Shown one piece after another: positions 1 through 64,000 of a DNA stretch of 64,000 bases (positions are counted from its first letter, which is position 1; every line of letters starts with the position of its first letter). Source of the stretch: Mizuhopecten yessoensis (Eukaryota); assembly GCF_002113885.1 (NCBI RefSeq), contig NW_018406970.1:809960-873959 (forward strand), read 5' to 3'. Position numbers and translations under genes: made by a program. The notes beneath the pieces are model-generated. The model was not told the DNA's origin, made no database searches, and saw only the letters and a list, made by a program, of their open reading frames with translations.

Positions 1-1137
1 TACTAGTAGGTAACTGGTTCCACAGTCTAACAGTAGAAGGAAAAAAGGATACGTTGGATAATTTAAGTCTGTTGTTAGGTAGGATGTAGTTATCAACGTT
101 TCGATGATTATAGTGAGAGTGCGACAAGGGAAGGGAGTAGAGTGTTGAGATAGTAAGGAGCTATATTATTGTGGATTATAAAAAAAATAAAAAAATTCGA
201 CGGGATCTCCGATGGGCTAGAGAATCCCATCCAGTTTCATTGTATATAAATTGTCTACTAGTAAACCAGTGACAATGCGTCCAGCTTCAAGTTGTATTTT
301 TTCTAATTTGTCTGAATCAGTAATAGAACAACCATCCCAAAGCTCACATCAATATTTTTGAATAGAAATTATAAATGTTTTATATATTTTATTCAGTGTA
401 CGTCGGTTCAGGGTATATTTCAATTTACAGAGGACACTTAATTGTTTAACTACCTTTTTACATATATTATCAATGTATAGGTCCATTTACAGTTAGCATT
501 GATGATAACTCCCATATGCTTATGGTTTTCAACAAAATCAATACTTACATTATTAAAGTTAATTTCAATGAGGTGATCAAGATCAATATTAGAAATAAGT
601 AAAGCATCTTTTTTTGCAGGATTGAATTTGGCAAGCCACTTATCTGCCCACAATTGTATATTTACTAGATCATTATTAATTTTTTGTTACTTGTGGTGAT
701 TTATCCGAATACAAAAGAGAGGTGTCATCAGCAAATGGTTTTGATAGACTTTCTATATTATCTGTTATGTCATTAATATAAAGTATAAACAGCAATGGGC
801 CAAGAACCGAACCCTGAGGTACTCCTGCATTTGTTCTCTTAGCAGAAGATCTACTATTTCCAATAAAAACTTGTTGAGATCTATTAGTAACATAATCAAT
901 TAACCAGTCCAATAACTTTCCGGATATTCCATAGCTAGCTAGTTTCACTTCAAGTCCCCTATGCCACACTCGATCAAACGCCTTAGACAAGTTGGCTGTT
1001 TTTTTTCAAGATTGTCGCACATAGTATGCTATATTTCTATAAGCTGGTGTACAGTAGAATGACCTGATATGAAAATTATCTAAAAGGTAGTTATGTAAAT
1101 ATTTAGCGACTAATCTTTCGAAAACTTTACCAATACA
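1..1137 (-). mobile_element. Degenerate, 5'-truncated non-LTR retrotransposon (CR1/L2-like LINE) reverse transcriptase fragment
   Basis: Minus-strand translation gives RT motifs CIGKVFERLV, SKAFDRVWH, AGVPQGSVLGPLLFILYINDI, FADDT and WADKWLAKFNPAK, broken by frameshifts and deletions. At about 1136 the sequence switches to DNA homologous to 28155 and 50901 onward. Confidence 0.9.
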
Positions 1138-1665
1138 TTTACATGTGATACGGTAGAAGCTGGTAGAAGCTGGTCACGTGGCAGGGAATGACTCCTACGG
1201 GACTTATCAAACGAGTACTGTGACCAAATATTGGTAGCTTATATATATTTTGATGTTCACATTTTCTTAGAGTTTGTTTTTACTTCAGTCAATAGAGCAG
1301 TGTTTTCCTCAAGAAAATGCCAACTGTTGATGAAGAAAATGTAAACGAAAACATCGAACCTGGTTGTTCAATCTTATACCAAAGAGAATTTAGCCAATCC
1401 ACGGCCATCACATTCCAGGGTAGATTACTCGATGACAAGGAATCGGAATATCTTGAGCTGATTTTTGGCGAAAACGTCATAAAACTTTTTTGCAAATCAA
1501 GCTGCAGCACCAAATCTTGCTCTCACTACTTCAATATAAATGAAATAATGTATCTGTTCCTAGGCAACCCGAGTACGCACTCAACATCATCCGTTTTAGA
1601 CATAATTTATATACCCTAATTAACAACTGGTGTATTTACTCTTCTAATGCAGTAAACGCATGCGT
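1136..1665 (-). pseudogene. Inverted relic of C1qDC intron 3; the relic exon is not present in the window, the LINE abuts this end
   Basis: The reverse complement resembles intron 3 of the intact C1q genes (cgcatgcgtttactgcattagaa vs cgtatgcgtttactgtattagaa; ggtcacagtactcg vs gaccacaatactc). The same block occurs at 28100-28687 and 50850-51436. Confidence 0.65.
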
Positions 1666-1684
1666 ACCTTTTGATAGCCTGTTT

Positions 1685-1889
1685 ATGACTATATATTTGA
1701 TTCGTAACAGATGTGGTGTTTTGGGCAGCTCTGAATTGATAAATTACTATTGGATAACAGACGCAGTTTCAGTTACCACGAGTTTTGGCCCCCAATGATG
1801 AGACGTAAATACGGATGGCAAAGGACCATAGCAGTGGGACAGACATCCAATCTATGTCTGCGATGTATAACAGATTCCGGATTCACTGA
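1685..1889 (+). pseudogene. Relic 3' half of a gC1q exon
   Basis: With frameshifts it reads LIRN..YWITDAVSVTT..PNDET*IRMAKDHSSGTDIQSMSAMYNRFRIH*, collinear with LVRN..WTTGAASAITML.PGDEVWVRVAKDHS..DIYPTFTMFNGFLIH* of the intact genes. It ends in the same ATTCACTGAG. Confidence 0.8.
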
Positions 1890-2369
1890 GCTTAAACAAC
1901 AAAATAACATATTTGTTTCCTTGCCGCAATAGATAAACATGTATCTCAGGTAAGGAAAAAGGTATCAATTTTTACTGTAACAATTGTGGTGTTAGAAAGG
2001 CGCTGCGAAAGATATAGATAAAATATGGATTCTTATTTGTTTTGTTGTTTACGCAAGTTTTACACTGGTAGGTTTTTGTGAGGCCGTTAAACCCCGAACA
2101 AACAAACAAACAAACAAGCATTTCACACTTGTAGGCTAATTATTTGAATTCTAGACGATCTTATCCGCTTTACAGTTTTAATAAACAGATTAAAAAGCTT
2201 ATTTTTTTCTATATCTGTCTTTAATATGTGCTCCTAGCCAAAAGACAATAAGCCTGAATTGACGGCTCACCTAAACAGGTAATGGTATGATGTTTTAGGT
2301 AATCATGCTACGATAAACAACTTCGATACTTTTATGTTACCTTACATCAAATTTTAAATTCATATTGCT

Positions 2370-2929: not shown

Positions 2930-5107
2930 ATGGCATTGCTGCTGTCAGTTCTGGCCATATGCATCCTTCTATTGGAAGCGTCCTTTCCGGTATCCAGCCA
3001 CTCAGTGACTGGTGATGAAACTTCTGATACAGAAATGCGTGAAATTCGACTTCTCTTAAACAAGTATGGAGCGCAAATAGGTAATACAAGTGTATGTATC
3101 GTGTTTGTCTGCTCAACATTTATGTTTATATTATTGCTTAAAGTGTATGTCTTGTTGCTGTCAAACATGTAGTGCGGGTATCATCAATAGTCAAGAGTCA
3201 AGAACCTTTATTTAACGTCGCGTATACATGTAACATAATAACATTAGCAATGTAGTGCTATTCTTGCGGCAAAACATATATAAAATTTCGTACTTATTTT
3301 TCCAAAATGAGGATAACAAAATTGACAAAAAATCGTCATCAAATAATTGTAAAACAAATCCTGTAGGATTAAGCTTAATCCTGTAAGATATGTTGAATTT
3401 ACAGCAAATTGATTTTATTGTTGTATCTATGAGTGTAATATTCAATATCCCGAGTCAAAAGTCTACAAGTAGTGATAAACCCGATCTTTCCATTATCAGT
3501 ATTGCAATCACGAGTACTTTCCAATCTTCCTTCACAGAAACTCTACAGAGGGAGAATGCACGACTTGAAGAGAAAACCATGACACTTGAAAAGAAAATCA
3601 TGACACTTGAAGAGAAAGTCACCTCACCTGAAGATAAATCACCGACATTTGAAGATAAAACACCGACATTTGAAGAACAACGTAAGCCTAAAACAGACCG
3701 AGTGAAAAACACCAAACTAGGGCCAGACAAACTCGGTATACCAGACGGTTCGGCAATATCCGACGGAAAGTCCCAATCAACAAAAAGAAACTCTGGTATG
3801 AAATTACATTGTTTCCTTAACTATAAAGATACCGGTAAATGCACGGCACATTTTAAAACGAGAGGATACCGATATGAATTAGCATTGGTAAAACAAGTTC
3901 ATAGGTCTTGATAAACAGGCAACAGTGCTATGTTGCGAAAACCAATGTAGACTGTCTGTACAACACGTGTACCTGATCTGTTTTAAAATTCAGATGGAGC
4001 TTACTTTTAACATGGGCTTCTTAAAAAAGGAAATGTGATACTAGCCAATCCTTTCTTTTATGTGTACTTATTTGCTCTTCAGAAGACAAGAGAAAATGAA
4101 GACCTACACACATTCTTGATGTTGATATAAAAGATTGTTTCATGTTATGATAACAACGTGTTATACGTCCGTACACTATTAGAACGTGTTTTCCTTGTAT
4201 TCCCTTCCTTGACAAATCGATACCTTTTTCTGATTACAGATGAAGCCGTTAAGATAGTAAACCCTCGTGTTGGTAAGCAATGCTTGTCTGCATTTATTTG
4301 TGTCCGTTTTTATGAAGTGATAACAATACCATGAACTTATATTTGTAAACGAGATTAGGTTATTATTTCTAGGTAGTTTCGAAACGATCATGATATCCCC
4401 CCCCCCAAAAAAAAGAAAAAGAATGTCAAAAGAACATTTTCTCAAACAAATATTCATTTGTTATTAGTTTCTCACTCAATAGATGGACGCGTAGTTTTAA
4501 TTATTAAGCTATTCTATCGACTGCATCAAAAACAAAATACCATTTACTTTTATTCACCTCATTTTGACCACAATACTCTTTAGCAAAGTCGCGCGTAGTC
4601 ATTTTTTGATATGTGACATTTTACTGCTATATCATATGTGCCCATGTAATTCATGAATAGGTTTTTTTCATCTTTTATTTAAGGATATTATATTTCACAG
4701 ATTCCACAAACGACAGCATTATTGCATTCCATGCCATTCTCGCACATACTGTAAGTGATCCTGCTGGAGAACATATCGTTACGTTTGACCACATCATCAC
4801 CAATATCGGAGCCCATTACAGCTCTAACAGCGGTGTTTTTACCTGTGTTGAGGTCGGCGTATACCAGTTTTCATGGATGGTCAAGGTTAATAATAAGCAA
4901 TGGATAACTACAGAGTTGGTACGTAACGGTGTGGTGTTTGGGTCAGCCATGAGCGGAGACGACGTCTTTTGGACAACGGGCGCAGCATCAGCTATCACGA
5001 TGCTGTCTCCCGGTGATCAGGTCTGGGTACGGGTGGCACAGGATCATAGCGGTGGGTCAGACATCTTACCAACGTTTACAATATTTAATGGATTTATGAT
5101 TCACTGA
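2930..5107 (+). CDS. Secreted C1q domain-containing protein (signal peptide + coiled coil + gC1q), copy 1, about 282 aa
   Basis: Exons 2930-3080, 3538-3795, 4240-4272, 4701-5107; all introns GT-AG phase 1, frame open. Signal peptide MALLLSVLAICILLLEASFPVSS. gC1q motifs IAFHA, IVTFDHIITNIGAHYSSNSGVFTCVEVGVYQFSW, LSPGDQVWV, FNGFMIH*. AATAAA at 5118. Confidence 0.92.
3561..3686 (+). repeat. Coding 21-bp (heptad) tandem repeat, 6 units, in C1qDC exon 2
   Basis: The unit ACA(C/T)TTGAAGA(G/T)AAA... encodes RLEEKTM TLEKKIM TLEEKVT SPEDKSP TFEDKTP TFEEQRK. Equivalent arrays occur in all four paralogs. Confidence 0.85.
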
Positions 5108-40658: not shown

Positions 40659-41159
40659 NNNNNNNNNNNNNNNNNNNNNNNNNNNNNNNNNNNNNNNNNN
40701 NNNNNNNNNNNNNNNNNNNNNNNNNNNNNNNNNNNNNNNNNNNNNNNNNNNNNNNNNNNNNNNNNNNNNNNNNNNNNNNNNNNNNNNNNNNNNNNNNNNN
40801 NNNNNNNNNNNNNNNNNNNNNNNNNNNNNNNNNNNNNNNNNNNNNNNNNNNNNNNNNNNNNNNNNNNNNNNNNNNNNNNNNNNNNNNNNNNNNNNNNNNN
40901 NNNNNNNNNNNNNNNNNNNNNNNNNNNNNNNNNNNNNNNNNNNNNNNNNNNNNNNNNNNNNNNNNNNNNNNNNNNNNNNNNNNNNNNNNNNNNNNNNNNN
41001 NNNNNNNNNNNNNNNNNNNNNNNNNNNNNNNNNNNNNNNNNNNNNNNNNNNNNNNNNNNNNNNNNNNNNNNNNNNNNNNNNNNNNNNNNNNNNNNNNNNN
41101 NNNNNNNNNNNNNNNNNNNNNNNNNNNNNNNNNNNNNNNNNNNNNNNNNNNNNNNNNNN
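40659..41159. other. Assembly gap in BPI-C intron 8
   Basis: Run of N. Confidence 0.99.
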
Positions 41160-41968
41160 AAAAAAATTGTTAAATAGTTTATCATTACTACTGGTTTTTA
41201 CACCTCATATCTAAACACATATAGCATGTGTAATACTCAATCGTTGGTTTAGACTATATTCTGTAGGTAGATCGGCTATTGTTTCACCTAGTTGTTTAAA
41301 CATATACAATGATAATTGTAAACTCTTGGATAATAAATGTTGTAAACCGTACGTCCTGCGCAGTGAGATTGTAGGAGAGGAGGTTGTGTTGTTGAGCCTG
41401 GTAAAACAAACTGTTCATCATGAAGTCAGACACCCACAAGTACATCATACGGCTTGTGTCGTCCCACAAAGGGAGGGGTGGGGCCTGGAAAGGGGGCGGG
41501 GCAGGCACAGACTTCCAGTCAATTTCACCCTGGAACAGTGTATGTGAAAATACATGTAATATCATATCTTATGATGAAAAACACAAGTTGGCAAACGATA
41601 GAGTGAAAGATAAACAATAATTTTTCGAATTGTAAATAGAACAATTTTGCAACAGAATGTGACACAAAATCATGCATCTCAAACTTGTTCAGCATAAGAT
41701 ATTCATTTATCAAATAGTCTGATTTATGTGGTATTGAACAAATACAAATAGTTGAAAAAAAGAATATTAGAGATGTCCACATTTAATTATTGCTCCAAAA
41801 CGATGCTTTCCTAACTATGTATCTAAACAGAGCTGTTTTTCAAAAATAGATTAGGACAGAATTGTTTTGTAATGCAAATTCTGCAACAATTTCGGCTCGA
41901 AAACGCTTGATGCTTTACACATTCAGTGTGGAAAGATTTTATATAAATTTTTCAGAATGATGATGATA

Positions 41969-42000
<32 letters not shown>

Positions 42001-44737: not shown

Positions 44738-45707
44738 GCGTGATTACCATAGGGGAGATTCTATAGACACCATAAATTATATATACTGCATATATGTCGT
44801 AATGGATATGAAGTAAAAGTCACCGAGGGAATACATCATTGCTGTCATAGTGATATGTTTAAACTAGAATGTCAGTAGTGTTGAAGCGTAATGACAAAAT
44901 AAAAATATTACAAGTATGAATTCTAAAATATATAAGTACATACTAAATATAATAATGTCACAAATTTATAATTGTTAATGATAAACTGATTCATTTTCGA
45001 TCATAACATTGAACTGTGTTTATCCCAATTTACGGTTTAATTACTGTATAATCAACAACCAAGCACATTATCAAGATTCTATGTTTGGGAATTGAATGAC
45101 AAAATAAAAATATTACAAGTATGAATTCTAAAATATATAAGTAGCGTGATTACCATAGGGGAGATTCTATAGACACCATAAATTATATATACTGCATATA
45201 TGTCGTAATGGATATGAAGTAAAAGTCACCGAGGGAATACATCATTGCTGTCATAGTGATATGTTTAAACTAGAATGTCAGTAGTGTTGAAGCGTAATGA
45301 CAAAATAAAAATATTACAAGTATGAATTCTAAAATATATAAGTACATACTAAATATAATAATGTCACAAATTTATAATTGTTAATGATAAACTGATTCAT
45401 TTTCGATCATAACATTGAACTGTGTTTATCCCAATTTACGGTTTAATTACTGTATAATCAACAACCAAGCACATTATCAAGATTCTATGTTTGGGAATTG
45501 AATGACAAAATAAAAATATTACAAGTATGAATTCTAAAATATATAAGTACATACTAAATATAATAATGTCACAAATTTATAATTGTTAATGATAAACTGA
45601 TTCATTTTCGATCATAACATTGAACTGTGTTTATCCCAATTTACGGTTTAATTACTGTATAATCAACAACCAAGCACATTATCAAGATTCTATGTTTGGG
45701 AATTGAA
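44738..45707. repeat. Local near-exact tandem duplications in BPI-C intron 3
   Basis: Block X (GCGTGATTACCATAGGGGAG..., about 150 bp) at 44738 and 45144. Block Y (AATGACAAAATAAAAATATTAC...GGGAATTG, about 205 bp) at about 44890, 45296 and 45501, plus a partial copy at about 45095. Both are single-copy in paralog B (26674-27020). Confidence 0.9.
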
Positions 45708-47008
45708 CGCCCTCAAAACAACATAAGGGCACGGGGGCCTACGAAGGGGGAAAGAGAAGTAACGACAAATCTCAAGTGTTGCAATGGGGGCAACATATCA
45801 ATTTTGGTCTTTTCCATGTCCTCTTAGTAAAAGACACAGAAGAAAACCCCGATTCTTTAGGCCCCCACATTAGTCGCATTTTACAACATTGGTTGCCTCC
45901 TACGACATGCAGAATGATAAACCGGGAAAATCCAGTCCCCGAACCTGCACAGGGCCACTCATGTTAAGGAAGAAGACAGAATGACGAAACACCTTGTTAT
46001 ATAATAGTAAACACGCAGTCAAAACGACCGATTGCAGAAATTACAGATCGCATTTTAGGCTTAAAAAGTATCACTTACAAGTTTTTTCTTGAATGAGTAC
46101 TCGAACCTTCCGCTCATGGCGAGGCCTATGTCTGAAACTGACCATTTCAGCCCAATACCTGCTATGGGTTTAAGCGAGCTTGAGGATGGCGGTGAAAATT
46201 CGGTTATTTGGGCACTGTCAGAGGAAGAGACATAAATTAACGTATTTAAATAAAGAGAGCAAGCCATAGTTTATACTCATCTGCATACTTGTATCGTTAA
46301 TTGATCAAGTGTTTATTGTCTAAATGGTTTGACTTAAATTGGATGTTTTGTGGTCTTGTTGTAAGAGACTTTTAATCCGAATAATGGAATAGAATGAATC
46401 GTAAGTATTGGAGTTTCTTTTAATTCAATATCGAAACAAGTGAGTAACCGTCCCACATACTCAGTGATGGAGTAGACTCTCCAGGCGGGATATCGATTTT
46501 CTGACCCCTCACACTCTTCGACAGCTGAACAATTGATTCTTGGTTTGCTGAAAAATATACGGGACTTACTTAATTTAATGTGCTATAAGAAAACGAAAAT
46601 AGGATTCGAATCAATAGTAATTGTGTTTTCTTTGTAGTAAGCAAGTTAAAGTGAAATGACGTCGGTTAAAATTGAGAAAGAAGAGTATGATTTTACATTC
46701 GAAGTCAACCATGAATATAGATTAAGTCGAAATCTTGATAGAAGTCAAACAACAAAACGAAAGTAGGAAATACCATATTATATATCATTATTGTTAACGA
46801 TTATCCTTGTTTCAAAAATGAAAACAAATGTAAGGTGTGCACAGACTATTTAATGTCTATCACCGATCGTATTCCTTTTATTACATTATATTTGAATATG
46901 ATTTATCAATGGCAGTAGCAATCATATCCGGTGTAGTGCCTCTAGTAATATCATGACACATGAGGATAGGGGAAGCATAGGAAGTGATCTGATAAAGTAC
47001 CTGATATA

Positions 47009-47227
47009 CTGTGAAATCTCTAATTGTAGAGGGGCTTTCAATTTCATTGATATCACGGGTAATATCCATCCACGAATTCAGAGTTCCACGAAGTAATTAC
47101 ACGTTTTATAAAAAGTGATTCTCCGTTTGAGTGGGTACTCGTTATTCAGGAATTTATGTACCAACGATATGACGTTTAGTCTTGAAACCTCGAAATTCGG
47201 GCCACACGAAAATATCTGATTTCACAG
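47009..47227. mobile_element. MITE with TA-flanked TIRs
   Basis: TA-CTGTGAAATC ... GATTTCACAG-TA, with internal CCACGAA(A/T) motifs. A related decayed copy is at 61668-61859. Confidence 0.8.
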
Positions 47228-47391
47228 TATACTATTGTATACTATGTATAACTGATTGTCTTAAGACAGCTTTCACTCAATGTATATTAACATTTTCACA
47301 CTGACCATAGGAACGGTTTATATTGCTTTTTTATCTGTTGAGAGGGACACAGGTACTCGAATACAAATAAGTCACTGGGCAAATATTGTAT

Positions 47392-48887
47392 GATGTTTTA
47401 ATTTATATAAATGATATTGTTATTGATATTGCCTCTGTAAGTAAGCTTTTCGCTGACGACAATTTATATCATAGTTGATACGCCATTTTTGGCAGCTGAA
47501 CAACTAAATAATGACTTAGAAAAAATCATTATTTGGGCAAAACTTTGGCAGGTGGATTTTAATCCACAAAAAACTAAGAGTATTATTATATCAAGGAAAA
47601 GAGTTCCTCACAATCATCCTTTCCTATATCTTAACAATGCCCCAATAGAAAATGTGAACTGCCACAAATATTTAGGTGTTACACTGTTTGAAGATTGTAG
47701 TTGGTCTATACATGTTGATGACATTATCAACAAGGTGACGACTAAACTAAACCTTTTACGGAAAATACGTTTTACCCTTGATAGAAAATGTTTACAAATA
47801 TTATATTTTACTTTTATAAGATCTATTTTGGAATATGCTGACGTCGTCTGGGACAAATTAACTATTGAATATGTAAATAAGCTTGAGAAAATTAACCAGG
47901 AGGCAGCGAGAATAGTATGTGGTGCTACAAAACTTACAATCTAAATAAGTTGTATATAGAAACCGGATGGGAAAACTTAAATGAAAGAAGGAAAAAACAT
48001 AAATTGACACAATTTTTTAAAATGTTTCATCGTCTCACTCCTGATTATCTTTTCAAGCTTGTACCTCCTAGCATGTCTGAAATGCATAACTACAGCACTA
48101 GGCATGGTAACGATCTTACGGGTATCAGATGCACCACTGAGTTTTATCGTAAGTCTTTCCTACCCTCAGTTATTTCTCTTTGGAATAATACTCCTGAGGA
48201 GATTCGTTTTCATCCTTCGTGTCCCAACTTCAAGTCCTATCTCGACCAGAACTCTAGGGGACGCCCCCTGGATATTATTATGTAGGGTCGAGACAATATT
48301 AAATATATCATACTAGACTACGTCTCGGTTGCAGTTCTTTAAAACGCCATCTTTTTGAAAGAAATCTTGTTGATAATCCCTTATGTGCATGTGGACATTT
48401 TGTAGAAGACAGTTCCCATTATTTGTTATATTGTACCAATCACATTGAATCACGCCAAAGATACTTGACTCCATTGCCTTACCAATTCAGTGTTAATTTA
48501 TTACTGTTTGGTGATGTATCAAAAACATATGACCAAAATGTAAACATTTTTATAGCTACTCAAATTTCTATCAAATCAACCAGAAGATTTACAAGCAATT
48601 ATAATTCAACCACATAAAGTTATCATGTAAACTCAACTACCCATCCAACCGGGTAAAACTTCATCAGTTACTATCTTTATCCATGTTCTATCTGTTTCTC
48701 TTCACAATTTCTTATGTACATATTTAGGCTATCACTGCAAAGTTATACATGTTTTATCAGCAAAGCTTGTTATATATGGTGAGAAGGACTATGTATAAGT
48801 ACAACAGTACTTGTTTCCCAATCATCTGAATGAAATGTCTATGTAATTGTACATGTTTATTGATAGGAATAAAATATGGTTTAAACT
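47392..48887 (+). mobile_element. 5'-truncated CR1/L2-like LINE (RT C-terminus, C-terminal region, 3' UTR) in BPI-C intron 1
   Basis: Reads FLIYINDIV..SKLFADD, LNNDLEKIIIWAKLWQVDFNPQKT, HKYLGV, LYFTFIRSILEYADVVWD, SFLPSVISLWN and the Cys motif LCACGHFVEDSSHYLLYC. The 3' end is AATAAAATATGGTTTAAACT. An 11-bp TSD AAATATTGTAT lies at 47381-47391 and 48888-48898. Confidence 0.92.
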
Positions 48888-50447
48888 AAATATTGTATCT
48901 ATGTAACAACGGTTAAGGAAGGAAATCTTAGATACCAAAACGAGTGTATGAAATAAACAATGACACTGAATACAAATATATAAAGCTCACAATCAAAACA
49001 CTATTGTAGACATTTTGTCCTTATGTGATGAAATATAACCAGGTATGAACTTGTGTAGAAACAAAAGGTTGCTTAAATGAAAACATGAGTAAATGTATGA
49101 ATATATATGCAAGCTGGTATGCTGTTTATATGAGTGAGAGAATATCAACTAATAACCACTATACGCTATCAGCTCTCTGGAATACATGTTTAACGTAAGT
49201 ATATAATACGTTTGAGAAAGTTTATAAAAATTAAATATGCATTAATGTCTTATTATTTACATAATAACACAGTTATGTGTACACATTGTTTAAATATACT
49301 AGTCAGATGGTATTTACATTACGTTGATTGTTTCCGAAGCACATCAATGTTTACGTAGATTTAATACCTATATAGATTAAATAGTATGATACATATATAA
49401 TGCTTACCAGAATTATTCATTCATTCCAAAAAAAAGTTACTTTACAGACCTGCTAAAACTGTGTTAAATTCAATCGTTACCGTAATTAAGTCCTGCCGCT
49501 GTGATTCTGGTCTGAAATCCCGGATTCTCGGACACGGCAATGTCAAACCAATACATCACAGCTAAACAAAAAAGTACAATGCCACTGGACCCAGCCATCG
49601 TCAGCATAAAGCGCCTCGTTCGAATAAGGTTTGATACATTAACGGTGTCACGTGGTCACTATTATAATACAGGAATTCGAACGTACGATCTCCTCAAACA
49701 CGACAGCATGACCTGTACTCTAGTTTTGTTTACTAGAATTCCTTCTTTCGATTTGAATACATGTATAAGGGGGAGTAACTCCTCACTTATTGAATGCCTG
49801 TGGCTATATATACATGTAATGTACACGGTCGCCGTGAAGGCTATAATAATAAGAACGGTCACACAAATGTGACACGTATAATTAAAACACATACTCATGA
49901 ATGTAATATACTTTAAGTTTATCTTAGAATGTCTACTTATTTATAAAAAGATTGAATGCAAGAATTATATTATATAAAATTATATTAGTTTGCTGATATA
50001 ATCGATTCATTAATCGAATAAATTCGTTATATTTTATATATTCATTATTGGTATGTAAAGAACACATATTTATGAATTATACACACTATAAGTCCATCTA
50101 AATATGTTTATTTATGTATGTAATGAATTTATGTATTTCATAAATATATTAGTTTAGTTAATTAATTATAAGGTTTATTTACTTTATTTATCTCGAATGT
50201 TCACATACATTATAATAGATTCAATAGTCAAATAAATCCATTTTGTTAAGCGAAGATGAAATGACAATAAATTCATATATTAAGGTGTTGAAATTTTGCT
50301 TTAATACATGCAACCTGCAACCTGCAGCTGCTCAAATCCTAGCATTTTCATTTGAAGTGCCAGGAACCGTGATTAACGACATGTATTTTACTAAGGTTAA
50401 AGCGATTATTACTTAACGTAAACGAAAGTTATATTTCCTAGATTAAC

Positions 50448-50848
50448 TCACTGAAAAAGAAATCCATTTAACATTCTGAACGAGGGGTGTATGTCTGCCC
50501 CGCTGATATGTCCCATCACAACTCGTACACGTACCGAGACCTCATCGTCAGGGGTCGACATCGTGACAACTGATGCTGTGCCCATTATCCAATTTGTATC
50601 GTCTCCACCCAGAGCTGAACCACAACACACCGTTACGAACTTACTCTGTTATCATTAAGTGGCCAGCAGTATTTTGAATAGCAATGACAATTGTATACGC
50701 CAGCTTATACACAGGTAAATATGTCGATTGTTTAGCTGAAATGGGCACTGATATTTTTGTCGATTTGCTCAAACGGAACGATACGCTCTGATGCTTGATC
50801 ACCTACTGTATGCATGAAATGCAATAAGGCTACTGTCGGCTGTGGATA
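50448..50848 (-). pseudogene. Inverted gC1q-exon pseudogene (intron-3 homology continues to about 51436)
   Basis: Paralog of 27701-28101 (GGDDTNWIMGTASVVTMSTPDDEVSVRV...MLNGFLFQ*). Its 3' flank mirrors that of C1q copy 4 (GTTCCTGGCACTTCAAATG vs GTTCCTGACACTTTCAATG). Confidence 0.88.
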
Positions 50849-51439: not shown

Positions 51440-51645
51440 TCATAAATATGGATTTGATTCGTAACGGATGATCTGTTTGGGACAGCTCTGAGTTGATACA
51501 ATTACTGTTGGACAACAAACGCAGCATCAGTTATCCCGATTTTGGCCCCCGGTGATGAGACTTACGTCCGGATGGGAAAGGACCATAAAGTGAGACAGAC
51601 ATCCAACCTATGTCTGCGATGTATAACGGATTCCGGATTCACTGA
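51440..51645 (+). pseudogene. Relic 3' half of a gC1q exon
   Basis: GGACAACAAACGCAGCATCAGTTATCCCGATTTTGGCCCCCGGTGATGAG aligns with GGACAACGGGCGCAGCATCAGCTATCACAATGCTGGCTCCCGGTGATGAG of the intact exon. Ends in ATTCACTGA. Confidence 0.85.
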
Positions 51646-52089
51646 GCTAAAACCACAACATAACAAATGTGTTTCTTTGCCACAATAGATAAACATGTAT
51701 CTCAGGTAAGGACAATGGTATCAATTTCACTGTAACAGTTGTGTTGTTATAAAGGCGCTACGAAGGATACAGATAAAATATAGATTATTTTGTTTTGTTT
51801 TGTTGTTAAAGCAATTTTTTACACTGGCAGGTTCGTCTTCATTTGTTTTAAGGCTGTTAAACCCACAAACAAACAAACAAACAAGCAATTTACACGTGTA
51901 GATAAAAAATGGATTCTAAACAAACTTATATGCCTTACAATTTCGGTCCTTGATATGTGCTACAAGCCAAAATACATTAAGCCTAAAGTGAAGTCTGACC
52001 CAAAAGGAAATTGTACCGTAAAGCATACTATGATAAACGACTTATATACCGTTATGTTAACTAACATTAAATTTAAAGTTCGTATAAAT

Positions 52090-55723: not shown

Positions 55724-58700
55724 ATGCCAGAGCCCAATAGCATGGTATTATTTTGGATAACTGCGTTTTGTTGCTTGGGCATTGCCACCTCCGAAAATCC
55801 AGGATTTCAGACCAGAATCACGGCAGCAGGACTAAATTATGGTAAAAATAGAACATAAAACACTGTTTTATCAGGACTGTATCATCCTTGGTAATATTGT
55901 AAAATTATGTGTAAGATTGTTTGATTACTTTAAATGTTTTAACTGTATCTGTCTAGTATATTAAATAAGTCTACAAATCACTGTTGCTTGGAAAAGTACG
56001 AAAATGTCTTTAAAAAATCATAATTATGTTAATTTTGTATACATTCTCGGACACATTCACATTTCATTTGTATGTCATACATTGTGAAGCTTAAGAAGTT
56101 GTGTTTAGAAATCTTTCACATTTCCGTTCATTATGCCAGCTATTATGTATTCGTACATTTCTTCATACACATATAAGCAATATTTTCTCTACCAGGAAGT
56201 TCAGATACGGTAACCTTTCATAAGAAAAGCTAAAAATATCTTGTTTTCTAAAAAAATCAATTTGTTGAAATGAAAAGGATAAGAATGTAATTTGTAAGTG
56301 ACGCATCATGTTGTGCAAAGAATATGATAAAAGAAATATGATATGTTTAGATATCGGTATTCTTTCAGAGAGATACCCACTTGGTTGTTCACATCCTACA
56401 TTCGCTTTCGATTGTCGAAATAAAGCATGTTTACATAAAAGTATAATCTAGTATAAATAGCGTACGTAAATTGGTATTTCCTTTAAGAAGAGGATGTCCT
56501 TCTTTCGTGTTTTCTGTTCGATTTGCATCAGGTATTTGATCTAGTTTCTAGTAATAGATGGATTTATTTCCACATTTTTATCCAACCTCAGGACCATTTT
56601 TTAATTTTAGAATTGTTTACTTAAATGAAAAAAACACCAAGTACTGTTGGCTCGAATCCTACTTTCGTTTTCGTGTGTCACTATAGGTAAATTTCGTATA
56701 TATTGCAGCAAACAAAGAAGCCATCGTGCAGCTGTCGAAGAGCGTAAGGGGTCAGAAGATCAATGTCCCGCCGGGAAAGGCTGGCCCTGTTTCCTACTCC
56801 ATTACTGAGTATGTGGCACTGTTATTCACATGTATCAAGTTTAGTCACTAGTTATGATATTCAAATAACAGAGTCTCGTAATACTTGAAGTCGTACGATA
56901 GAGACATTAAACACTTTGTTTTGCGCGACTAAAATGGGTAAAAAATCAGTTTTTATTCATCAGTTCACAATACAAGTATTGAATATGTGTATAAAGCATA
57001 GCTTGCTCTCTTGATTTAATCACGATGAGTTGTGTCTCTTCCTCTTTCAGTGCCGAAATAACCGAGTTTTCACCACCATCCTCGAGCTCGCTCAAACCGA
57101 TAGCAGGTAGTGGGCTGAAATGGTCTGCTTCAGACATTGGACTCGCCATGAGCGGGCGCTTCAGATACTCCTTCAGAAAGATGTGAGTGATACGTTGGTT
57201 TATAAAAATAGGCCAGTTGTAAGCGTTCTTGATTGCTTTGAGTGCGGGATCATCTAAAATCGGACACTTTGTCATTTGTCTTCATCTTCATTATGTACTT
57301 TCAAACGAATAGAAATTAATTCGTGCAAAATTATAAACACGATATAATAAAGTTACGGGGAAACTCTATTGTATTTGAATTAATATCATAGAGAAGTAAT
57401 CACTATCGTAATTTATAAAATCATTGTGAGTGACATAGCTGTATCCTTATACAAACGTACATATCAACAAATCAAACAGGTATCTTATTTCATTTTGTAA
57501 AAGTTCGACATTGCAACGAACCCCAAATTGTAAATAAACTACTTTGTAATGATGTTTTCCATCTGTGATTGTGACCTCATTTCCATTGAAGTCAAAGGTA
57601 TAACCTTTGTTACGTCCTGCCAATGCGTATAATAGATTATTTATGCAGCTTTGTGGAGCCAAATATGCCATAGTTGCAATATAGAGTCGAATTAATATAT
57701 ATATTCACAGCATCAAGATTTCGGATCATGGCAGCTTTGATATATCTGTGTCTGGAGTTTCCTTCAGTGTACAAGTCGATCTAGGTAAGTTATCTTTCAT
57801 ATTCGGAACTAAAGTTACTTTGACTTATATACTTAAATAAAAATTTCAATCTTTAAAATCAAAGTTAGTATGCCTTACACGCCTTTGTGGTGCAGTACTT
57901 ATAGTGACAGTCTTATAGCGCTTATTTTTTTGTTTCTGAATGGAATGGACACGAATGGGCGGCCAAGCATCAGAGCAGGACCGTGCACAAGTGATATAGG
58001 AAGTGTGTCCATCAAGTTCCATGGCAGATGGGCATGGGCATACAATTTATTCCGACGGCAATTCGAGAAAAAAATTCAAAGATTACTCAAGGAAAAGGTT
58101 AGTTTCCGCACAGTTTGGCCTTTTTCTTCACCACATACACGTAAAAACGTTAAAATTAAAGCAGGGCTTCATGGAATGAATGTAACCGATTTGCGTTTAT
58201 ACCGCCATGGAATTGAAACAAATGACGTTCAATCCATAAACATGTTTTAATTATTCCCTAACAATTGCAATATTGCGTGTGTCGTCATCGTTAACACGAT
58301 TCATGGAGCAGCAAGAGTCACCAAACTGTTTAATTATAATCGTTTTCTCACAGGCGGGAGGTGAAGTTTCAAAATAACGCTGATTCAAATGCGTCCCTAG
58401 CTGAATTAATGAAATTTCATCTGGTAATGCTTATAGAGGAACTTGCAGTCGAAATGTAAAAATACACGTATATCTGGTAGAGCCATCTGCAACATATCAA
58501 TTGTAGAGGAAAATCCTCCTCTTTTTTTATTTAGAGGTGGGGACAAAAAAAACCAGGAAGACTTGTTACCTACTAGTTTCAAGACAATTAAGGGCACGTT
58601 TTGCTTTGATGGGAAAGACGCATATACTTCTTCAACGTTGCCAGAGAAGGAGTAGCGGCTGGATGCCAAGCATATATTTATATTACTGTTATGTATACCA

Positions 58701-61700
58701 CTTATTTACATGTGCAGAGGTCGGTATTTAATTAGTTATTTTTGGAATTTTTAGATGTGCATCCTGATTAGCCATTCTCTCAATACAGATGCTGAGAAGT
58801 CTCTGTCCTTATTGAAAGGTTAGTTGTCCTTGAAGTTCTGTTATTAATGGGATAACATTACAGTATTTGCAATGCGTTTAACTCACATCTGACCTGTTAT
58901 ACATTTATTGTTTTCAAGGTACATTGTACATTATGTTTTCATTTCTGTTGTGTAGTTACCTTGGGTATTGGGGAAATGTTGGAGCTGAGCTATAAACTTA
59001 CAAGGCCACCACAATTTACCTCTGATTATATGGAGACCTACCACAAGGTAAGGGGTACCGTTATATATAACTTCCTTGTCGGTGCTGTAGGTAGTTTTAT
59101 AATAAACCTTATTAACAAAATAAAATGTCAAGATTAAACGTTTTTCTAGCTGATATTTTTTTTTGTAATCTTTGGCATAACATAACAATACCGACCAAGC
59201 ATATACTTACAAAACATATATGTTTATATCTTTATGCTCAAAATGTATCAATCATTATGTATTGTTAAATTCACAACTGCTTTGATTCCTAATCATTTAG
59301 TAATTACCTTTTTAATCACCAGACCATGTGATTTACATGAAATTTCAATTACTGAATGTGATCATTTTCTTAGTTTTTTGTAATTATGAAACCAAATTAT
59401 TTGGGTTTTTTCCTCGACATTTAGTGAATTATGTTATTAGTTGTATGAATCTTCCTAACACGGAACACGGGTAAAATGTGCTTCCTTGTCGTTATTATAC
59501 AGGTATATATACTGCTTGCAAAATATACAACTTAATGTTTCAATTATCAAAAAAAACTCGTTTAGGTATAGGTGTACTTAGATACATAAAATCTTAATCC
59601 AAATGCACTGTTACAGGGTGAGATTGACTGGAAGTCTGCGCCTGCCCCGCCCCCTTTCCGGGCCCCATCCCTGCCCCCGTGGAAAGACACGAGCCGTATG
59701 ATGTACTTGTGGGTGTCCGATTTCATGATGAACAGTTTGTTTTACCAGGCTCAGCAACACAACCTCCTCTCCTACAATCTCACTGCGCAGGACGTACGTT
59801 TAAAAAAAAAATAAAAAAAAATATTAGTGTTGTAAATGGTATGTAACATTGAGAAGTAGTGGTTAGGGACTTACGGTCAACATGTACACTAAATCCACCC
59901 CACCCTTGATCGTTAGACCTGACATGTGTGTGAAGAAATAAAGACTGGTGGCAATGAGAAGCAGAATTATATTATTGTAAATAGCGAACATGTTTTCACT
60001 TATTTATATTATATATAAATTCATATTATGAGCACAAAAGCACATGTTTGTAAGCCGTAATATGTTTGTAATCTAGGCCTAATGGTGGATAATACATTTA
60101 AAGAGGCATGGAATAACAAGTTGAGAATGTTTCGTACATATAGCGATTCCAATTTGTTTTCTCGTTATACTCCAGCTATTTCCAGAAAGTTTGGCAATCT
60201 TCCTGACCACTCTAGGTTTAAACTGTGTACAACATTGCTGAGATGTTTCTCTCTTGATTTTCTTTCGATGTTGTTATTTTACTTCATGTGCATTTCAATA
60301 AAATCGACCGACTGAAATGCCTGGAAAAAAACTCAACTGTCGCATACAGTTGGGACTGGACCAAACCCACCCTTCATCATTGGTTTGAATATGTTGAATG
60401 GTTTACTTTTCGTAACAAAACATGACTTTAAATTGGAACAAAAATGTAAGAATACTGCTAACCGGAACAAACCTTTCGAATTAAGGCTTTCAGTACCATT
60501 AAAATAAAATGATTAGATGATTTATCCATATTTTGAAAAAATCATTAATATCAATATCGATTTATATGCCTTAGATAATATTCATTAAATTGTATTTCCA
60601 ATGAAAAAAGTGCATGAAGAATGCCGTGTCATTCTTTTACAAGATCGATCTGTTTTTCTAATTACCATATTAATTTCAAAACTTTTAACCAATGTATTCA
60701 TCTCTTTTTTCATTAAGACTTAATGTTATTGTAATTGTCGTTGAACCTTCATATTGTTTCAAAATACAAGTGCGCCATGTCTTTTATGTGTTAAAGTACT
60801 GTTTACGATGAATCGAAGTTCTACATTTGAAAATATTTGTTTTTATACATGGAAAATTCATTTACACCTTTCAAATGTAGAGCTAATATTTCTGTCATTT
60901 CAGCTCCCGGAAAACGCACAGGGAGTTTTGAACACGACGTGTACCAGTTCACTGTGTATCGGGAACTTGATTCCTGAGGTATGTAGCTAATACTGGAAGA
61001 CGAAGTATTTCTCGAATAAGTTTAATTGAAATATCAAAAGAACTATAAGCTCATTTATTCCTATTGTCACTGACTTTAACATTAAGAAATACAAACATAT
61101 GCCAAACGTGAAGAAAGAGAAAAAATGTGTTTCTATCTTCTTTGTTTTTCAACGGAATATCGCCAATAGTAGGGATATTGAGTATGTTTTCAGTGGATAC
61201 GCATTCGAGTGAGAGTACCTTGATTGTGATACTGCATGTGTGTATTAATATACAAAACGACTTTTAATTATGATTAAGACATTGTTATCAACGGTATACG
61301 TGTTTGTGTATTGAAGCTAAATAAGTATCCTAGCTGCCAGTTGGAACTACAAATGAGAAGTACGAAAATGCCGCAGATTTCTGTTGTCAACGGCTCCATA
61401 GAAACCAAGATGGCCGGATTAATAGCTTTGTATGTCCGACCTATGAAGACCTCATCCACTCTCTATTTCAAGCCAGGGGAAAAAGAGAACCCAGTTTTGG
61501 GCAGACTGAAAAGCAGTACCAAAACATTCGGCGATTTCATATTTACAATGAATGCGGTTGGTACATTTTAAAATTGCTGTTCACCGAATTCACCTCAATC
61601 AAGCTTCTATTTGCATTGCTTAATTTTAATTTCAAATATTTCTATTTGTTTTGATTTCTTAGTCATTCTGTGAAATTAATAATTTTTGAGTGGTTTTTAA

Positions 61701-63540
61701 TTTCGCTGATTTCGTTGGTCCCCTTCATCTACGATTTGATAGGTCCACGAAATAATTACAAGAATGAAAGCTCTGTATGAGTGTTTTCTCGTAACCCATG
61801 AATTATGTATCAACGAAATGCACGACATTTTGGTCCAACGAAAATGTATGATCTCATAGTAACTAGCATATTTAATTATATTTATTTTAAAGTTGTCACG
61901 AAAATGTATGATTTCATGTAGCATATTCAATTATATTTCCTTTAAAACTATCAATATTTTATCTGATTTACTTCGTAATTTGTTTCACCATTATGCAAAC
62001 GGTGTATACATGTACTAGTGTCAGTTTGTGATTAATTACCCATTATTGGTGCGTCCATGTGTATTCTAGCGGATTATTTTCCCTTATTAACGCCGTTAAC
62101 ATCCAGAGGGTTTTTTTGGGCTTCAAATACACGAATAACGTTCACACTTATGGTGGTGATATAGTCCATACACAATTAGACCGTTGAGTAATGTTTGTAT
62201 GGGTGATCTTAAAAATAACTTCCTCTTGAGCTCTATTGGTTATTATATTTTATACTTCCTTAATCGTTAGAACAGCGCGTGATTCATAAAGATCATGCGA
62301 GACCTTAAGTTCGGAGGTTAAGAAGATATATAAATGTCCCCAATGGATACAATGTACCACTTTACCTGTCATAAGGAAATTCAGTAATTTAAATAAGGAA
62401 GCTACGTACGTCGTACAGACACATCAAAATATAAGCGGAACAATACAGATTATGTAATATAGCATCATAACAACGTTATATGTGCACAACAGCCATTCCA
62501 AAATGTCCTTCTTTCATACTAAGACACTCTATATTAATACCAATAGTCATTTCTATGACAAATTTATGACAGTGAGATGACATTGTTATTGTTTTGTTTC
62601 AGAACATGACAGTGACCGGACAGATAAGTGTCGCTGAGAAAGTGATGCACTACAAGGTCACCAACATGACGTGAGTTTTCATGGCAACAACGATCATATG
62701 TTTCATTAGAATTATATATATATTATTTTATATTTTCTTTTTGTGTGGCAACATCTTTCTTAATCATTTGAAAGAGTATAACTGCAGAAGTTTTTACAGT
62801 GTATGGATACAAAAACTTACTACTAATACGTAGACTGCGTGATGACGCACTCGAAAAAAAGTCGACTCTTATTTTAGATCATTATTCTCTCAATTTCAAA
62901 TATCATTTATTATCTTGCAATTAGCAGTTGGAAACTTTGAACTTTAGAGAAACGTTTCAATCGTAATTGCATTTTCATATGAAAAATGAAACAATAAGTT
63001 GTCAAGTGCATAAACGTTGCTGACCTACTGTTTAAGCTGCAACATGTGTCGCAATACCATGCACCATACACCTTGTTTACGACATTTCTCAGTTAAACAA
63101 GAAGGTCAGCAATATCTGTTTATCACGTTAAATACCAGGCAAGGGACGTTTCGTTGTTGAATACTTTTATTTCAATTAAGTGTAATTTATTCATAATGAG
63201 ATCAAGTTTAGTGGCTTTTTCGACCAAGCTAGATTTAACACATGATTGACATTTGTTTCAGTATCACTGCTTCCCTGCAAAATTCAACTATCCCGAATGT
63301 CACTGTAAGTACACTACGAAATACATTGTACTGAGTTCAACTATTTAAAAAGATCAAATCTTAAACTATCTGTTGTGTCATTTCAAATCCTAGTTTTCGT
63401 GTGAAACATTATAATGTCTTTTTACTCTGTATACTCTGTAACGTTTAATGACATACTCTTTTTCATTTTTGAACAGGAACGAGCACTTAACTTTCTGATC
63501 AAGAATGCAGTAGAAAGGTTCATCCAGCCGAGTATTGATT
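55724..63540 (+). CDS. BPI: LBP/BPI-family (bactericidal permeability-increasing-like) protein, copy D; exons 1-13 of a predicted 15, continuing beyond the window (about 508 aa predicted)
   Basis: Exons 55724-55841, 56709-56808, 57051-57182, 57711-57784, 57943-58097 (TG acceptor, or an in-frame AG at 57917-57918), 58755-58818, 58956-59047, 59617-59793, 60904-60978, 61317-61556, 62603-62670, 63262-63304, 63477-63540; phases consistent, no stops. Family hallmarks: signal peptide + NPGFQTRITAAGLNY, the conserved Cys pair (GPCTSD...KMC), YHKGEI, Pro-rich linker PAPPPFRAPSLP, RMMYLWVSDFMMNS, LNTTC...LIPEL.KYP. Confidence 0.88.
61668..61859. mobile_element. Decayed MITE related to 47009-47227, in BPI-D intron 10
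   Basis: CTGTGAAATTAAT ... ATGATCTCATAG-TA, with internal CCACGAAA/CAACGAAA motifs. Confidence 0.5.
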
Positions 63541-64000
63541 GTATGTTGACCTCTTAAACACGTTTCTATAGTGGTAACAACCATTTTAGATTGTTTATCA
63601 TATTTATCTTTTTTGATAGCATTATTCAGTATAAGCCCAAAAATTTGTCACATTTATCTATTTCTATAGGCTTACTCCATGTTATCCCCAACTATGTCAA
63701 ACATTTTATATATATAAAGCGTTATCCCGTGTAATCTAAAAATAAGATGTCATATTCATTTATTTGTATAGGGTTAGTCCATATAATAACAAAATATGTA
63801 CCCACAATTGTTAAAGAATGATTAAATAATAAATAATTACAAGTAGTATTTTTTGCATTGAATCTTTTAATTTTATCACACGATAAGTTATGTCTCCTAA
63901 ATAATGTCTCAAGGATATTGTTGTCATTACATTAGCTTCATAAAGAAAGTCGAAGGTATCTTGAAATTGGAAGATATAGTAGTATATGCGCCCTATGAAA

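What the first reader, a model, noticed from the sequence alone, without database searches (positions are those of the whole stretch)
1136..64000. Co-amplified C1qDC + LBP/BPI innate-immune cassette with asymmetric fates
Seen: four tandem units (about 1136-13570, 13578-27650, 27651-50395, 50396-end), each pairing a C1qDC gene with an LBP/BPI gene. All four C1q copies are open with intact splice sites; three of four BPI copies are broken. Established: gC1q proteins are an expanded pattern-recognition family in bivalves, and LBP/BPI proteins bind LPS. Inference: the amplification is selected for C1q dosage or diversity while BPI hitchhikes and decays, and the ancestral C1q-BPI pair (740 bp apart) may be a co-regulated recognition + effector module. 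I do not know of a description of this linked cassette but cannot search the literature.
Basis: partly seen in the sequence, partly recalled or inferred. Interest (0 to 1): 0.75.

Follow-up and report, generated by a model that had tools for sequence, protein, structure and literature searches.

The report
Scallop C1q array carrying dead BPIs
In the Yesso scallop, a pathogen-recognition gene (C1q-type) was copied several times in a row and dragged along copies of a neighbouring antibacterial gene (LBP/BPI) that then broke down: ordinary gene-family turnover at a gene neighbourhood shared by scallops, not a proven working module.

Summary
The repeats are real. Four open C1qDC genes (74-83% identical) and three broken LBP/BPI copies lie in a Mizuhopecten yessoensis scaffold. 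The geometry was misread. Only the last pair is head-to-tail (740 bp). The three broken BPIs are on the minus strand, 4.4-5.4 kb tail-to-tail from a C1q. They derive from a second, intact and expressed paralog (BPI-B) outside the window; a third intact gene (BPI-C) follows on the right. Six dead C1q exon-3 relics were missed. Best history: an old inverted duplication of the C1q-LBP pair (BPI kept, C1q lost), then unequal crossing-over (C1q3 is a recombinant) that kept C1q and lost BPI-B copies. Two relics share their lesions, so only about two BPI deaths are independent. C1q-LBP-BPI adjacency seems conserved in Pecten and Argopecten (consecutive accessions), but C1q expanded in each species without functional BPI gains. 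I found no shared promoter, and RNA contigs hint at separate expression. Variation sits in C1q apex loops without proof of positive selection. The units are not haplotypes, though one 4-5 kb tract may be an assembly collapse. Verdict: a known kind of birth-and-death immune cluster, with a microsynteny I did not find in print.

The parts
2930..5107 (+). C1qDC gene Q1 (282 aa; exons 2930-3080, 3538-3795, 4240-4272, 4701-5107); secreted coiled-coil + gC1q type; intact
   Evidence: identical to P0002 = XP_021357953
15079..17203 (+). C1qDC gene Q2 (270 aa; exons 15079-15226, 15522-15779, 16797-17203; 33-nt mini-exon lost in frame); intact
   Evidence: P0004 = XP_021357954
29936..32350 (+). C1qDC gene Q3 (281 aa; exons 29936-30083, 30420-30677, 31130-31162, 31944-32350); intact; recombinant, 5' part like Q4 and 3' part like Q1/Q2, best switch point about 30440-30480
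   Evidence: max chi-square 73, 0 of 1000 permutations, 146 informative sites; P0003 = XP_021357967
52661..54983 (+). C1qDC gene Q4 (281 aa; exons 52661-52808, 53141-53398, 53855-53887, 54577-54983); intact; the copy in the ancestral position before BPI-A
   Evidence: P0001 = XP_021357966/OWF48178; PF00386 75 bits
54984..55723 (+). 740-bp spacer: C1q4 3' UTR with poly(A) signals 222-310 nt after the stop, then the BPI-A upstream region
   Evidence: RNA contig 5' end at 55701
55724..64000 (+). LBP/BPI gene BPI-A, exons 1-13 (55724-63540); exons 14-15 lie beyond the window; spliced and expressed; the intron 4 acceptor at 57941-57942 reads TG
   Evidence: 9 of 12 possible joints among the 15 rows shown; P0012, P0040, P0041
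10506..13031 (-). BPI-B relic 1: exons 12 (7-nt deletion), 13, 14 and 15 only; exons 1-11 deleted
21598..27482 (-). BPI-B relic 2: exons 3-7, 9, 10, 14, 15; exons 1-2 and 11-13 deleted; +4 nt at exon 3; stop at the start of exon 10; exon 8 absent at a 1-N gap
37778..49598 (-). BPI-B relic 3: exons 1-10, 14, 15; 13-nt deletion in exon 2; shares with relic 2 the +4 nt, the exon-10 stop and the loss of exons 11-13; multi-copy repeat inserted in intron 1
   Evidence: dS 0.48 (0.38-0.62) to BPI-A, dN/dS 0.29
50445..50846 (-). Dead inverted C1q exon 3, 849 bp upstream of the relic-3 ATG on the same strand: the former C1q partner of the BPI-B lineage
   Evidence: 3 in-frame stops; gaps of 11, 1, 1, 1, 2, 1 nt
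27712..28099 (-). Second copy of the dead inverted C1q exon 3 (97% identical to 50445-50846)
1685..1905 (+). Dead same-strand C1q exon-3 fragment upstream of Q1
13578..13615 (+). 38-nt remnant of the same dead C1q fragment upstream of Q2, at the unit 1/2 deletion junction
28726..28912 (+). Dead same-strand C1q exon-3 fragment upstream of Q3
51442..51656 (+). Dead same-strand C1q exon-3 fragment upstream of Q4
27649..27651 (.). Junction at which relic 2 (matching 46381) is joined to sequence matching 50398: a 4-kb deletion relative to unit 3 that removes BPI exons 1-2 and the promoter
   Evidence: one DNA contig leaves the stretch at 46381 (hint only)
20084..24242 (.). Tract 99.6-99.8% identical to 36269-40608, bounded by or containing N gaps (24243, 38302-38550, 40659-41159): possible assembly collapse or recent gene conversion

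Best explanation
A birth-and-death C1qDC tandem array that grew inside an old scallop C1q-LBP-BPI gene neighbourhood. Step 1 (inferred): the pectinid ancestor had C1q, LBP/BPI and BPI-C in a row. Step 2 (geometry shown, timing inferred): before Mizuhopecten and Azumapecten split, the C1q-LBP pair was duplicated in inverted orientation. This gave BPI-B (kept, expressed); its C1q partner later died. Step 3 (inferred from junctions): a segment from the 3' flank of BPI-B to just past the C1q stop was duplicated in tandem, and unequal crossing-over multiplied it (shown for the recombinant Q3). Step 4 (shown): the new C1q genes stayed open under purifying selection, gained nearby poly(A) signals and diverged mainly in apex loops. 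The redundant BPI-B copies were lost by deletions and frameshifts, and two of them were already dead when they duplicated. Function (inferred from family knowledge): the C1q proteins are secreted coiled-coil trimeric lectin-like recognition proteins with slightly different binding tips; BPI-A and BPI-B are cationic LPS-binding effectors; the two are transcribed as separate genes.
For: Exon map and strands. Relics are closer to BPI-B than to BPI-A in most exons, e.g. exon 10 81% vs 65%. Intact BPI-B P0014 and BPI-C P0039 are on the same 2,145,564-bp scaffold. One deposited model (OWF48177) joins relic-3 exon 1 to BPI-B exons absent from the window, which places BPI-B to the left on the minus strand (inference). 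The fused model P0040 places BPI-C downstream of BPI-A. BPI-A is sister to the A. farreri protein, 100/98. BPI-A vs relic 3 dN/dS 0.29 (0.21-0.39); relic 2 vs 3 dS 0.026; C1q dN/dS 0.44-0.72. Q3 is recombinant. Full-length C1q tree gives species-specific clades: Mye 4 copies 99/96, Pmax 2 copies 98/95, Airr 4 copies 100/100. Variable sites: apex loops 15 of 27 vs 27 of 100 elsewhere, p=0.01. Published precedent for tandem C1qDC arrays by unequal crossing-over: PMC6835236 (abstract, passages and section 2.4).
Against: The adjacency is conserved in three genera, which a functional module would also predict. The dead inverted C1q has dS 0.70-0.91 to live copies, higher than BPI-A vs relic 3 at 0.48; the intervals only just overlap, so the single-event dating is loose. 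Its dN/dS of 0.35-0.48 means it lived long after the split. The gC1q-only tree does not resolve the four Mye copies as one clade. Apex pN/pS is about 1.0 and not above 1, so selection for diversity is not shown; surface loops vary in most proteins. One contig of run X14 spans Q4 exon 3, the spacer and BPI-A exon 1.
Confidence: 0.75

Rival explanations
1. The C1q-LBP-BPI neighbourhood is a co-regulated recognition-plus-effector module kept by selection (shared enhancer or read-through); amplification tunes the recognition part while the effector dose is capped.
For: Consecutive accessions on one contig: P. maximus XP_033754782/784 (C1q), 785 (LBP), 787 (BPI), 44.19 Mb; A. irradians XP_069113465 (C1q), 466, 467, 73.14 Mb. 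The spacer is only 740 bp. Both genes are present in run X14 and one 1116-nt contig spans the spacer. Scallop LBP/BPIs are Vibrio-induced (PMC7689009, passages).
Against: The genes are head-to-tail, and C1q4 has its own poly(A) signals. No NF-kB, AP-1 or ISRE consensus was found in the BPI-A or Q4 upstream regions, and they share no similarity. In X13 BPI-A joints have depth 137-2751 while Q4 shows one unspliced contig at depth 5 (truncated tables, weak). The A. irradians neighbour is a 170-aa model without signal peptide on a long branch, while 7 of the 8 A. irradians subfamily proteins looked up lie on other contigs. The BPI-B partner C1q died. Neighbour conservation within one family is the default expectation (own knowledge).
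Confidence: 0.12
2. Part of the array is an assembly artefact: units 2 and 3, or the BPI half of them, are two haplotypes or a collapsed repeat placed twice.
For: A 4-5 kb tract is 99.6-99.8% identical and sits at three N gaps. A perfect 406-bp doublet lies at 44737-45549. Relics 2 and 3 differ by dS 0.026.
Against: DNA contigs of two other runs differ from unique C1q4/BPI-A sequence by only 0.06-1.0% (10 of 16 DNA pieces listed), against 3-5% for relic 2 vs 3 outside the tract and 8-19% between other unit parts. The C1q genes differ at dS 0.18-0.29. Run X7 holds a contig that leaves at the unit-2-type junction and also covers unit-3-only sequence (hint).
Confidence: 0.1
3. Purely neutral array turnover: C1q copies are intact because they are small (850-bp coding target) and young, BPI copies break because they are large (15 exons, about 12 kb), and no selection for C1q is needed.
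For: Only about two independent BPI deaths; C1q lineages died twice as well; apex dN/dS is not above 1.
Against: C1q dN/dS is significantly below 1 in 5 of 6 pairs at dS 0.18-0.29, with no stop or frameshift. A spliced C1q paralog contig is present in X14.
Confidence: 0.08

Closest known systems
Tandem sC1q-like type II clusters of Crassostrea virginica (Gerdol, Greco, Pallavicini 2019, PMC6835236; abstract, passages and section 2.4 read)
   Same: Secreted coiled-coil + gC1q paralogs in tandem; unequal crossing-over; a few hypervariable sites on a conserved jelly-roll core.
   Different: Here only four copies; each repeat carries a dead LBP/BPI and dead C1q exons; the array grew from an inverted duplication. 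The paper has 0 mentions of BPI and reports significant positive selection, which four sequences cannot show here.
Molluscan LBP/BPI proteins: Azumapecten farreri LBP/BPI (G8XSQ2), Argopecten purpuratus ApLBP/BPI1 and 2 (PMC7689009, passages read), oyster BPI (C4NY69)
   Same: Two-domain PF01273 + PF02886 secreted proteins. BPI-A is the orthologue of the A. farreri protein. BPI-C groups with the cluster that holds an A. purpuratus 'LBP 2'.
   Different: M. yessoensis has an extra intact paralog (BPI-B) and three relics. The genomic link to C1qDC was not found in the papers searched. The N-domain is cationic in A and B (+11, +12) and slightly anionic in C (-4).
Vertebrate LBP/BPI/BPIF tandem cluster and RCCX-type multi-gene modules (both recalled, not tested)
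   Same: Immune genes duplicated as multi-gene segments in which one gene stays functional and a neighbour becomes a pseudogene; chimeric genes from unequal crossing-over.
   Different: Unrelated genes and lineage; an analogy for the mechanism only.

Membership tests
sC1q-like type II (bivalve C1qDC) | C-terminal globular C1q domain | tested here: met
   PF00386 75.3 bits vs cut-off 23.7; cerebellin, C1q and C1QL structures are the top PDB hits; beta-strand domain in the model (low confidence, mean pLDDT 54)
sC1q-like type II (bivalve C1qDC) | Coiled-coil tail before the domain, no collagen | tested here: met
   Helix 31-82; 21-nt heptad repeats in exon 2; no Gly-X-Y run in the sequences, despite RefSeq names
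sC1q-like type II (bivalve C1qDC) | Signal peptide | tested here: inconclusive
   Hydrophobic N-terminal helix 2-18; no dedicated predictor run
sC1q-like type II (bivalve C1qDC) | Trimer formation and binding of microbial ligands | not testable with these tools
   Needs recombinant protein
LBP/BPI family | N- and C-terminal LBP/BPI/CETP domains | tested here: met
   PF01273 and PF02886 on exon translations and on P0012 and P0014
LBP/BPI family | Conserved cysteine pair in the N-domain; cationic N-domain in BPI-like members | tested here: met
   Cys150 and Cys189 in P0041 with equivalents in all 8 proteins checked; net charge +11 (A), +12 (B), -4 (C). That the pair forms a disulfide is recalled.
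LBP/BPI family | LPS binding or bactericidal activity | not testable with these tools
   Knock-down effect of an A. purpuratus homologue on Vibrio load is published (PMC7689009, passages); orthology of that gene to BPI-A not checked
Birth-and-death tandem C1qDC cluster | Adjacent, closely related paralogs with signs of unequal crossing-over and pseudogenes | tested here: met
   (99/96 on full length; unresolved on the domain alone)
Birth-and-death tandem C1qDC cluster | Positive selection at a few head-domain sites | tested here: inconclusive
   Apex loops enriched in variable sites (p=0.01 to 0.0001 by loop padding); apex pN over domain pS 1.15-1.26, intervals include 1
Co-regulated functional gene module | Linkage conserved across species | tested here: met
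   Indirect only: consecutive accessions on contigs of equal length in P. maximus and A. irradians; no coordinates or strands seen
Co-regulated functional gene module | Shared promoter or regulatory elements | tested here: not met
   Head-to-tail; no shared consensus motif or similarity in 6 upstream regions; a crude scan
Co-regulated functional gene module | Co-expression | tested here: inconclusive
   Both present in X14; BPI-A spliced with Q4 near background in X13 (contigs only, truncated tables)
Co-regulated functional gene module | Functional pair amplified together | tested here: not met
   No duplication left both partners intact: 0 of 3 recent units, and the older inverted arm lost its C1q

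The most novel reading that the evidence does not exclude
Scallops keep a conserved C1q-LBP-BPI immune locus in which a lectin-like sensor and LPS-binding effectors are co-regulated. The sensor is free to multiply and diversify its binding tip, while extra BPI dose is selected against, so every co-duplicated BPI is killed. The inverted BPI relics may in addition yield antisense or decoy RNA.
Probability: 0.12. Interest if true: 0.6.

Novelty: new member of a known kind. Interest (0 to 1): 0.3.

Why it matters
As it stands this is a well-resolved example of how bivalve C1qDC arrays grow (inverted duplication, then unequal crossing-over with a chimeric gene) and how neighbours are dragged along and lost. 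It is of practical use for scallop immunology. It separates three intact LBP/BPI genes from three relics, and it shows that public gene models here are wrong in three ways: BPI-A fused to BPI-C, a relic exon 1 spliced onto BPI-B, and a 26-residue insert caused by the TG acceptor. qPCR or RNAi primers can cross-react with relics that are about 90% identical. The pectinid C1q-LBP-BPI adjacency was not found in the papers searched and makes the co-regulation question cheap to test. It would be of wider interest only if co-regulation were shown.

Tried and rejected
No whole genome was held for the window, so flanks were inferred from database proteins only. A metagenome scan with the gC1q exon gave 2 distant loci out of 302 candidate stretches (28-32% identity), with no BPI on them. 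Earlier scan notes: nothing by place or by words. I first read the A. irradians data as loss of linkage; one search found the adjacent C1q and reversed that. I first thought the inverted C1q died at duplication, from raw identity; codon analysis gave dN/dS 0.35-0.48, so it lived on for a long time. A suspected third gene in the spacer (8160-8598) had no convincing Pfam hit and no Atlas hit; part of the spacer is the BPI-B 3' end. A suspected broken exon-2 acceptor in C1q was a wrong first guess; the true AG site lies 21 nt downstream. I rejected the idea that BPI-A is dead through its TG acceptor: RNA joints in both RNA-like runs, a transcript-derived protein (P0041) and the RefSeq model all join at the normal position. 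Contig depth over C1q4 was 1.3-1.9 times the BPI-A intron depth in X3 and 2-3.3 times in X7; this hints at copy-number variation but is no copy number, so it was not used as evidence. The X14 contig across the spacer is not evidence of one transcript: its mean depth can be reached with the gap near background (my arithmetic). No complex prediction was run, as adjacency alone is no reason for one. Literature searches for the linkage found no description; I read only the listings, apart from three papers. The library lacks most subscription journals in shellfish immunology, so absence from print is not established. PMC10672452 (passages) had nothing that bears on this. (assembly heterozygosity) was seen as a listing only and not used.
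Full report
OBSERVATION. A self-comparison shows long direct repeats of 75-99.8% identity and inverted matches across the window; a shuffled control gave no hit. Four C1qDC genes lie on the plus strand (2930-5107, 15079-17203, 29936-32350, 52661-54983). All 4 of 4 are open with GT-AG sites and are identical to four RefSeq proteins of Mizuhopecten yessoensis on one 2,145,564-bp scaffold. Each has a hydrophobic N-terminus, a coiled-coil helix (residues 31-82), a linker and a gC1q domain. One LBP/BPI gene (BPI-A) starts 740 bp after the last C1q stop, on the same strand, and runs off the window after exon 13. Three further LBP/BPI copies are broken.

WHAT WAS MISREAD. The three broken copies are on the minus strand. 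They lie tail-to-tail with the preceding C1q, 4.4-5.4 kb away, so the 740-bp pair occurs intact only once. The window also holds six dead C1q exon-3 pieces, from two ancestral pseudogenes that were co-duplicated: an inverted one (27712-28099, 50445-50846; 3-4 in-frame stops and several frameshifts) and a same-strand one upstream of each live gene. The inverted relic at 50445 lies 849 bp upstream of the relic-3 BPI start, on its strand, and is collinear with the C1q4-BPI-A pair. It is the dead C1q partner of an inverted copy of the pair.

GENES OUTSIDE THE WINDOW. The same scaffold encodes an intact 510-aa paralog, BPI-B (P0014), and an older paralog, BPI-C (P0039). The relics resemble BPI-B more than BPI-A in most exons (exon 10: 81% vs 65%; exon 3 is an exception), and no exon of BPI-B matches the window fully. 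One deposited model begins with the exon 1 of relic 3 and continues with BPI-B exons; this places BPI-B left of the window on the minus strand (inference). A RefSeq model fuses BPI-A with BPI-C, which places BPI-C to the right. RNA contigs show spliced BPI-A (9 of 12 possible joints among the 15 rows shown) and a second spliced transcript whose exon 9-10 joint reads as in BPI-B, without the stop of relics 2 and 3. The cluster therefore has three intact LBP/BPI genes and three relics, four intact C1q genes and six relic pieces.

HISTORY. BPI-A is sister to the Azumapecten farreri protein (100/98), so the A/B split predates that speciation. BPI-A vs relic 3 gives dS 0.48 (0.38-0.62) and dN/dS 0.29, so the B lineage was long functional. 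The inverted C1q relic has dS 0.70-0.91 and dN/dS 0.35-0.48 against live copies: it also lived for a time and then died, and the dating is only loosely matched. In this older round BPI survived and C1q was lost. The recent round has C1q dS 0.18-0.29 and dN/dS 0.44-0.72, with upper bounds below 1 in 5 of 6 pairs. Homology between units 1-3 and unit 4 fades within about 60 nt after the C1q stop. The repeated segment is thus BPI-B copy + dead C1q pieces + live C1q, and Q1-Q3 have poly(A) signals 11-14 nt after their stops. Q3 is a recombinant: left of 31300, 98 of 119 informative sites side with Q4; right of it, 6 of 27 (max chi-square 73, 0 of 1000 permutations). This is the mark of unequal crossing-over. 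Relic 3 spans promoter to last exon, so the BPI copy was complete at birth and decayed afterwards. Relics 2 and 3 share three lesions (+4 nt at exon 3, a stop at the start of exon 10, loss of exons 11-13) and differ by dS 0.026. 'Three of four broken' therefore reflects about two independent deaths.

DOSAGE OR DIVERSITY. The four proteins are 74-83% identical. With loop limits from the model and the apex assignment recalled from C1q topology, 15 of 27 apex-loop sites vary against 27 of 100 elsewhere (p=0.01). pN/pS is about 1.0 in the loops and 0.37-0.47 outside, and the intervals include 1. This fits diversification of the binding tip but does not show positive selection. It matches the pattern reported for oyster clusters (PMC6835236, section 2.4).

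SYNTENY. In Pecten maximus two orthologous C1q proteins, an LBP and a BPI-C orthologue carry accessions XP_033754782, 784, 785 and 787 on a 44.19-Mb contig. In Argopecten irradians a C1q of the same subfamily, an LBP and a BPI carry XP_069113465-467 on a 73.14-Mb contig. This is indirect (no coordinates) but points to an ancestral pectinid C1q-LBP-BPI neighbourhood. C1q copies multiplied separately in each species. P. maximus shows two C1q beside one LBP in these searches. In A. irradians 7 of the 8 subfamily proteins looked up lie on other contigs, and the adjacent one is a 170-aa model without signal peptide on a long branch. C1q expansion does not need BPI.

CO-REGULATION. The intact pair is head-to-tail. 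C1q4 has poly(A) signals 222-310 nt after its stop. A crude scan found no NF-kB, AP-1 or ISRE consensus in the Q4 or BPI-A upstream regions and no similarity between them. In run X13, BPI-A joints have depth 137-2751 while C1q4 shows one unspliced contig at depth 5; in X14 both are present and one contig crosses the spacer. These are contigs with truncated tables and only a weak hint of independent expression.

ARTEFACT CHECK. DNA contigs of two runs differ from unique C1q4/BPI-A sequence by 0.06-1.0% (10 of 16 DNA pieces listed), well below the 3-19% between units. The exception is 20084-24242 vs 36269-40608 (99.6-99.8%), which sits at three N gaps and may be a collapse or a conversion tract; the missing exon 8 of relic 2 falls on one of the gaps. 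The BPI-A intron 4 acceptor reads TG in the window, yet RNA joints in both RNA-like runs and two database proteins use the normal position. It is either a GT-TG intron or a private allele or error.

LITERATURE AND VERDICT. Seven searches found no account of C1qDC-LBP/BPI linkage, but the library lacks most subscription journals. Tandem C1qDC expansion by unequal crossing-over is published (PMC6835236; abstract, passages, one section), as is the immune role of scallop LBP/BPI (PMC7689009; passages). The locus is a new member of a known kind: a birth-and-death C1qDC array (confidence 0.75) in which BPI hitchhiked in the recent round only. The family-wide adjacency is a modest new fact. The co-regulated module remains possible (0.12) but has no positive support here. 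Interest 0.3.

Noticed in passing
window 57941-57942 (+): The intron 4 acceptor of BPI-A reads TG, yet spliced contigs of two RNA-like runs, a transcript-derived protein and RefSeq join at that position: a possible GT-TG intron in a highly expressed gene, or a reference allele or error. One deposited model avoids it with a 26-residue insert.
   Followed up: partly
window 2391-2685, 14561-14869, 29372-29692, 52111-52415 (-): A very high-copy ~300-bp element (contig depth about 1000 times single copy) lies about 210-250 bp upstream of every C1q start and was co-duplicated. It looks like a tRNA-derived SINE (recalled, not tested).
   Followed up: partly
window 6178-6248 (+): tRNA-like sequence with an irregular anticodon, present only in unit 1; probably a SINE head.
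   Followed up: no
window 676-1005 (-) and about 46970-49400 (+): Reverse-transcriptase fragment at the left edge (PF00078) that truncates unit 1, and a broken multi-copy element in intron 1 of relic 3 (no Pfam hit; high depth).
   Followed up: partly
window 44737-45707: Perfect 406-bp doublet plus a 205-bp repeat, 99-100% identical, in a relic-3 intron; possibly an assembly duplication.
   Followed up: no
window 12220-12658 and 63600-63800: A 50-bp minisatellite of about 9 copies in intron 13 of relic 1, with related sequence in intron 13 of BPI-A.
   Followed up: no
window 61317-61556 (+), exon 10: Scallop BPI-A/B and BPI-C proteins carry an insertion of roughly 15-25 residues in the C-terminal domain, rich in basic and aromatic residues in BPI-C (by eye, not aligned to outgroups).
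   Followed up: no
database models P0040, P0042, P0012 (same scaffold): Three public gene models are wrong: BPI-A fused with BPI-C (1011 aa), relic-3 exon 1 spliced onto BPI-B, and BPI-A with an intron-derived insert.
   Followed up: yes
window 8160-8598 (+) and copies near 18650 and 34855: Frameshifted ORF-like stretch in the spacer of units 1-3 with no convincing Pfam hit and no Atlas hit; unexplained, perhaps an old repeat.
   Followed up: partly
window 52449-54884, runs X3 and X7: Summed contig depth over C1q4, relative to BPI-A introns, differs between two DNA-like runs (about 1.3-1.9 vs 2-3.3 times): a weak hint of C1q copy-number variation.
   Followed up: no
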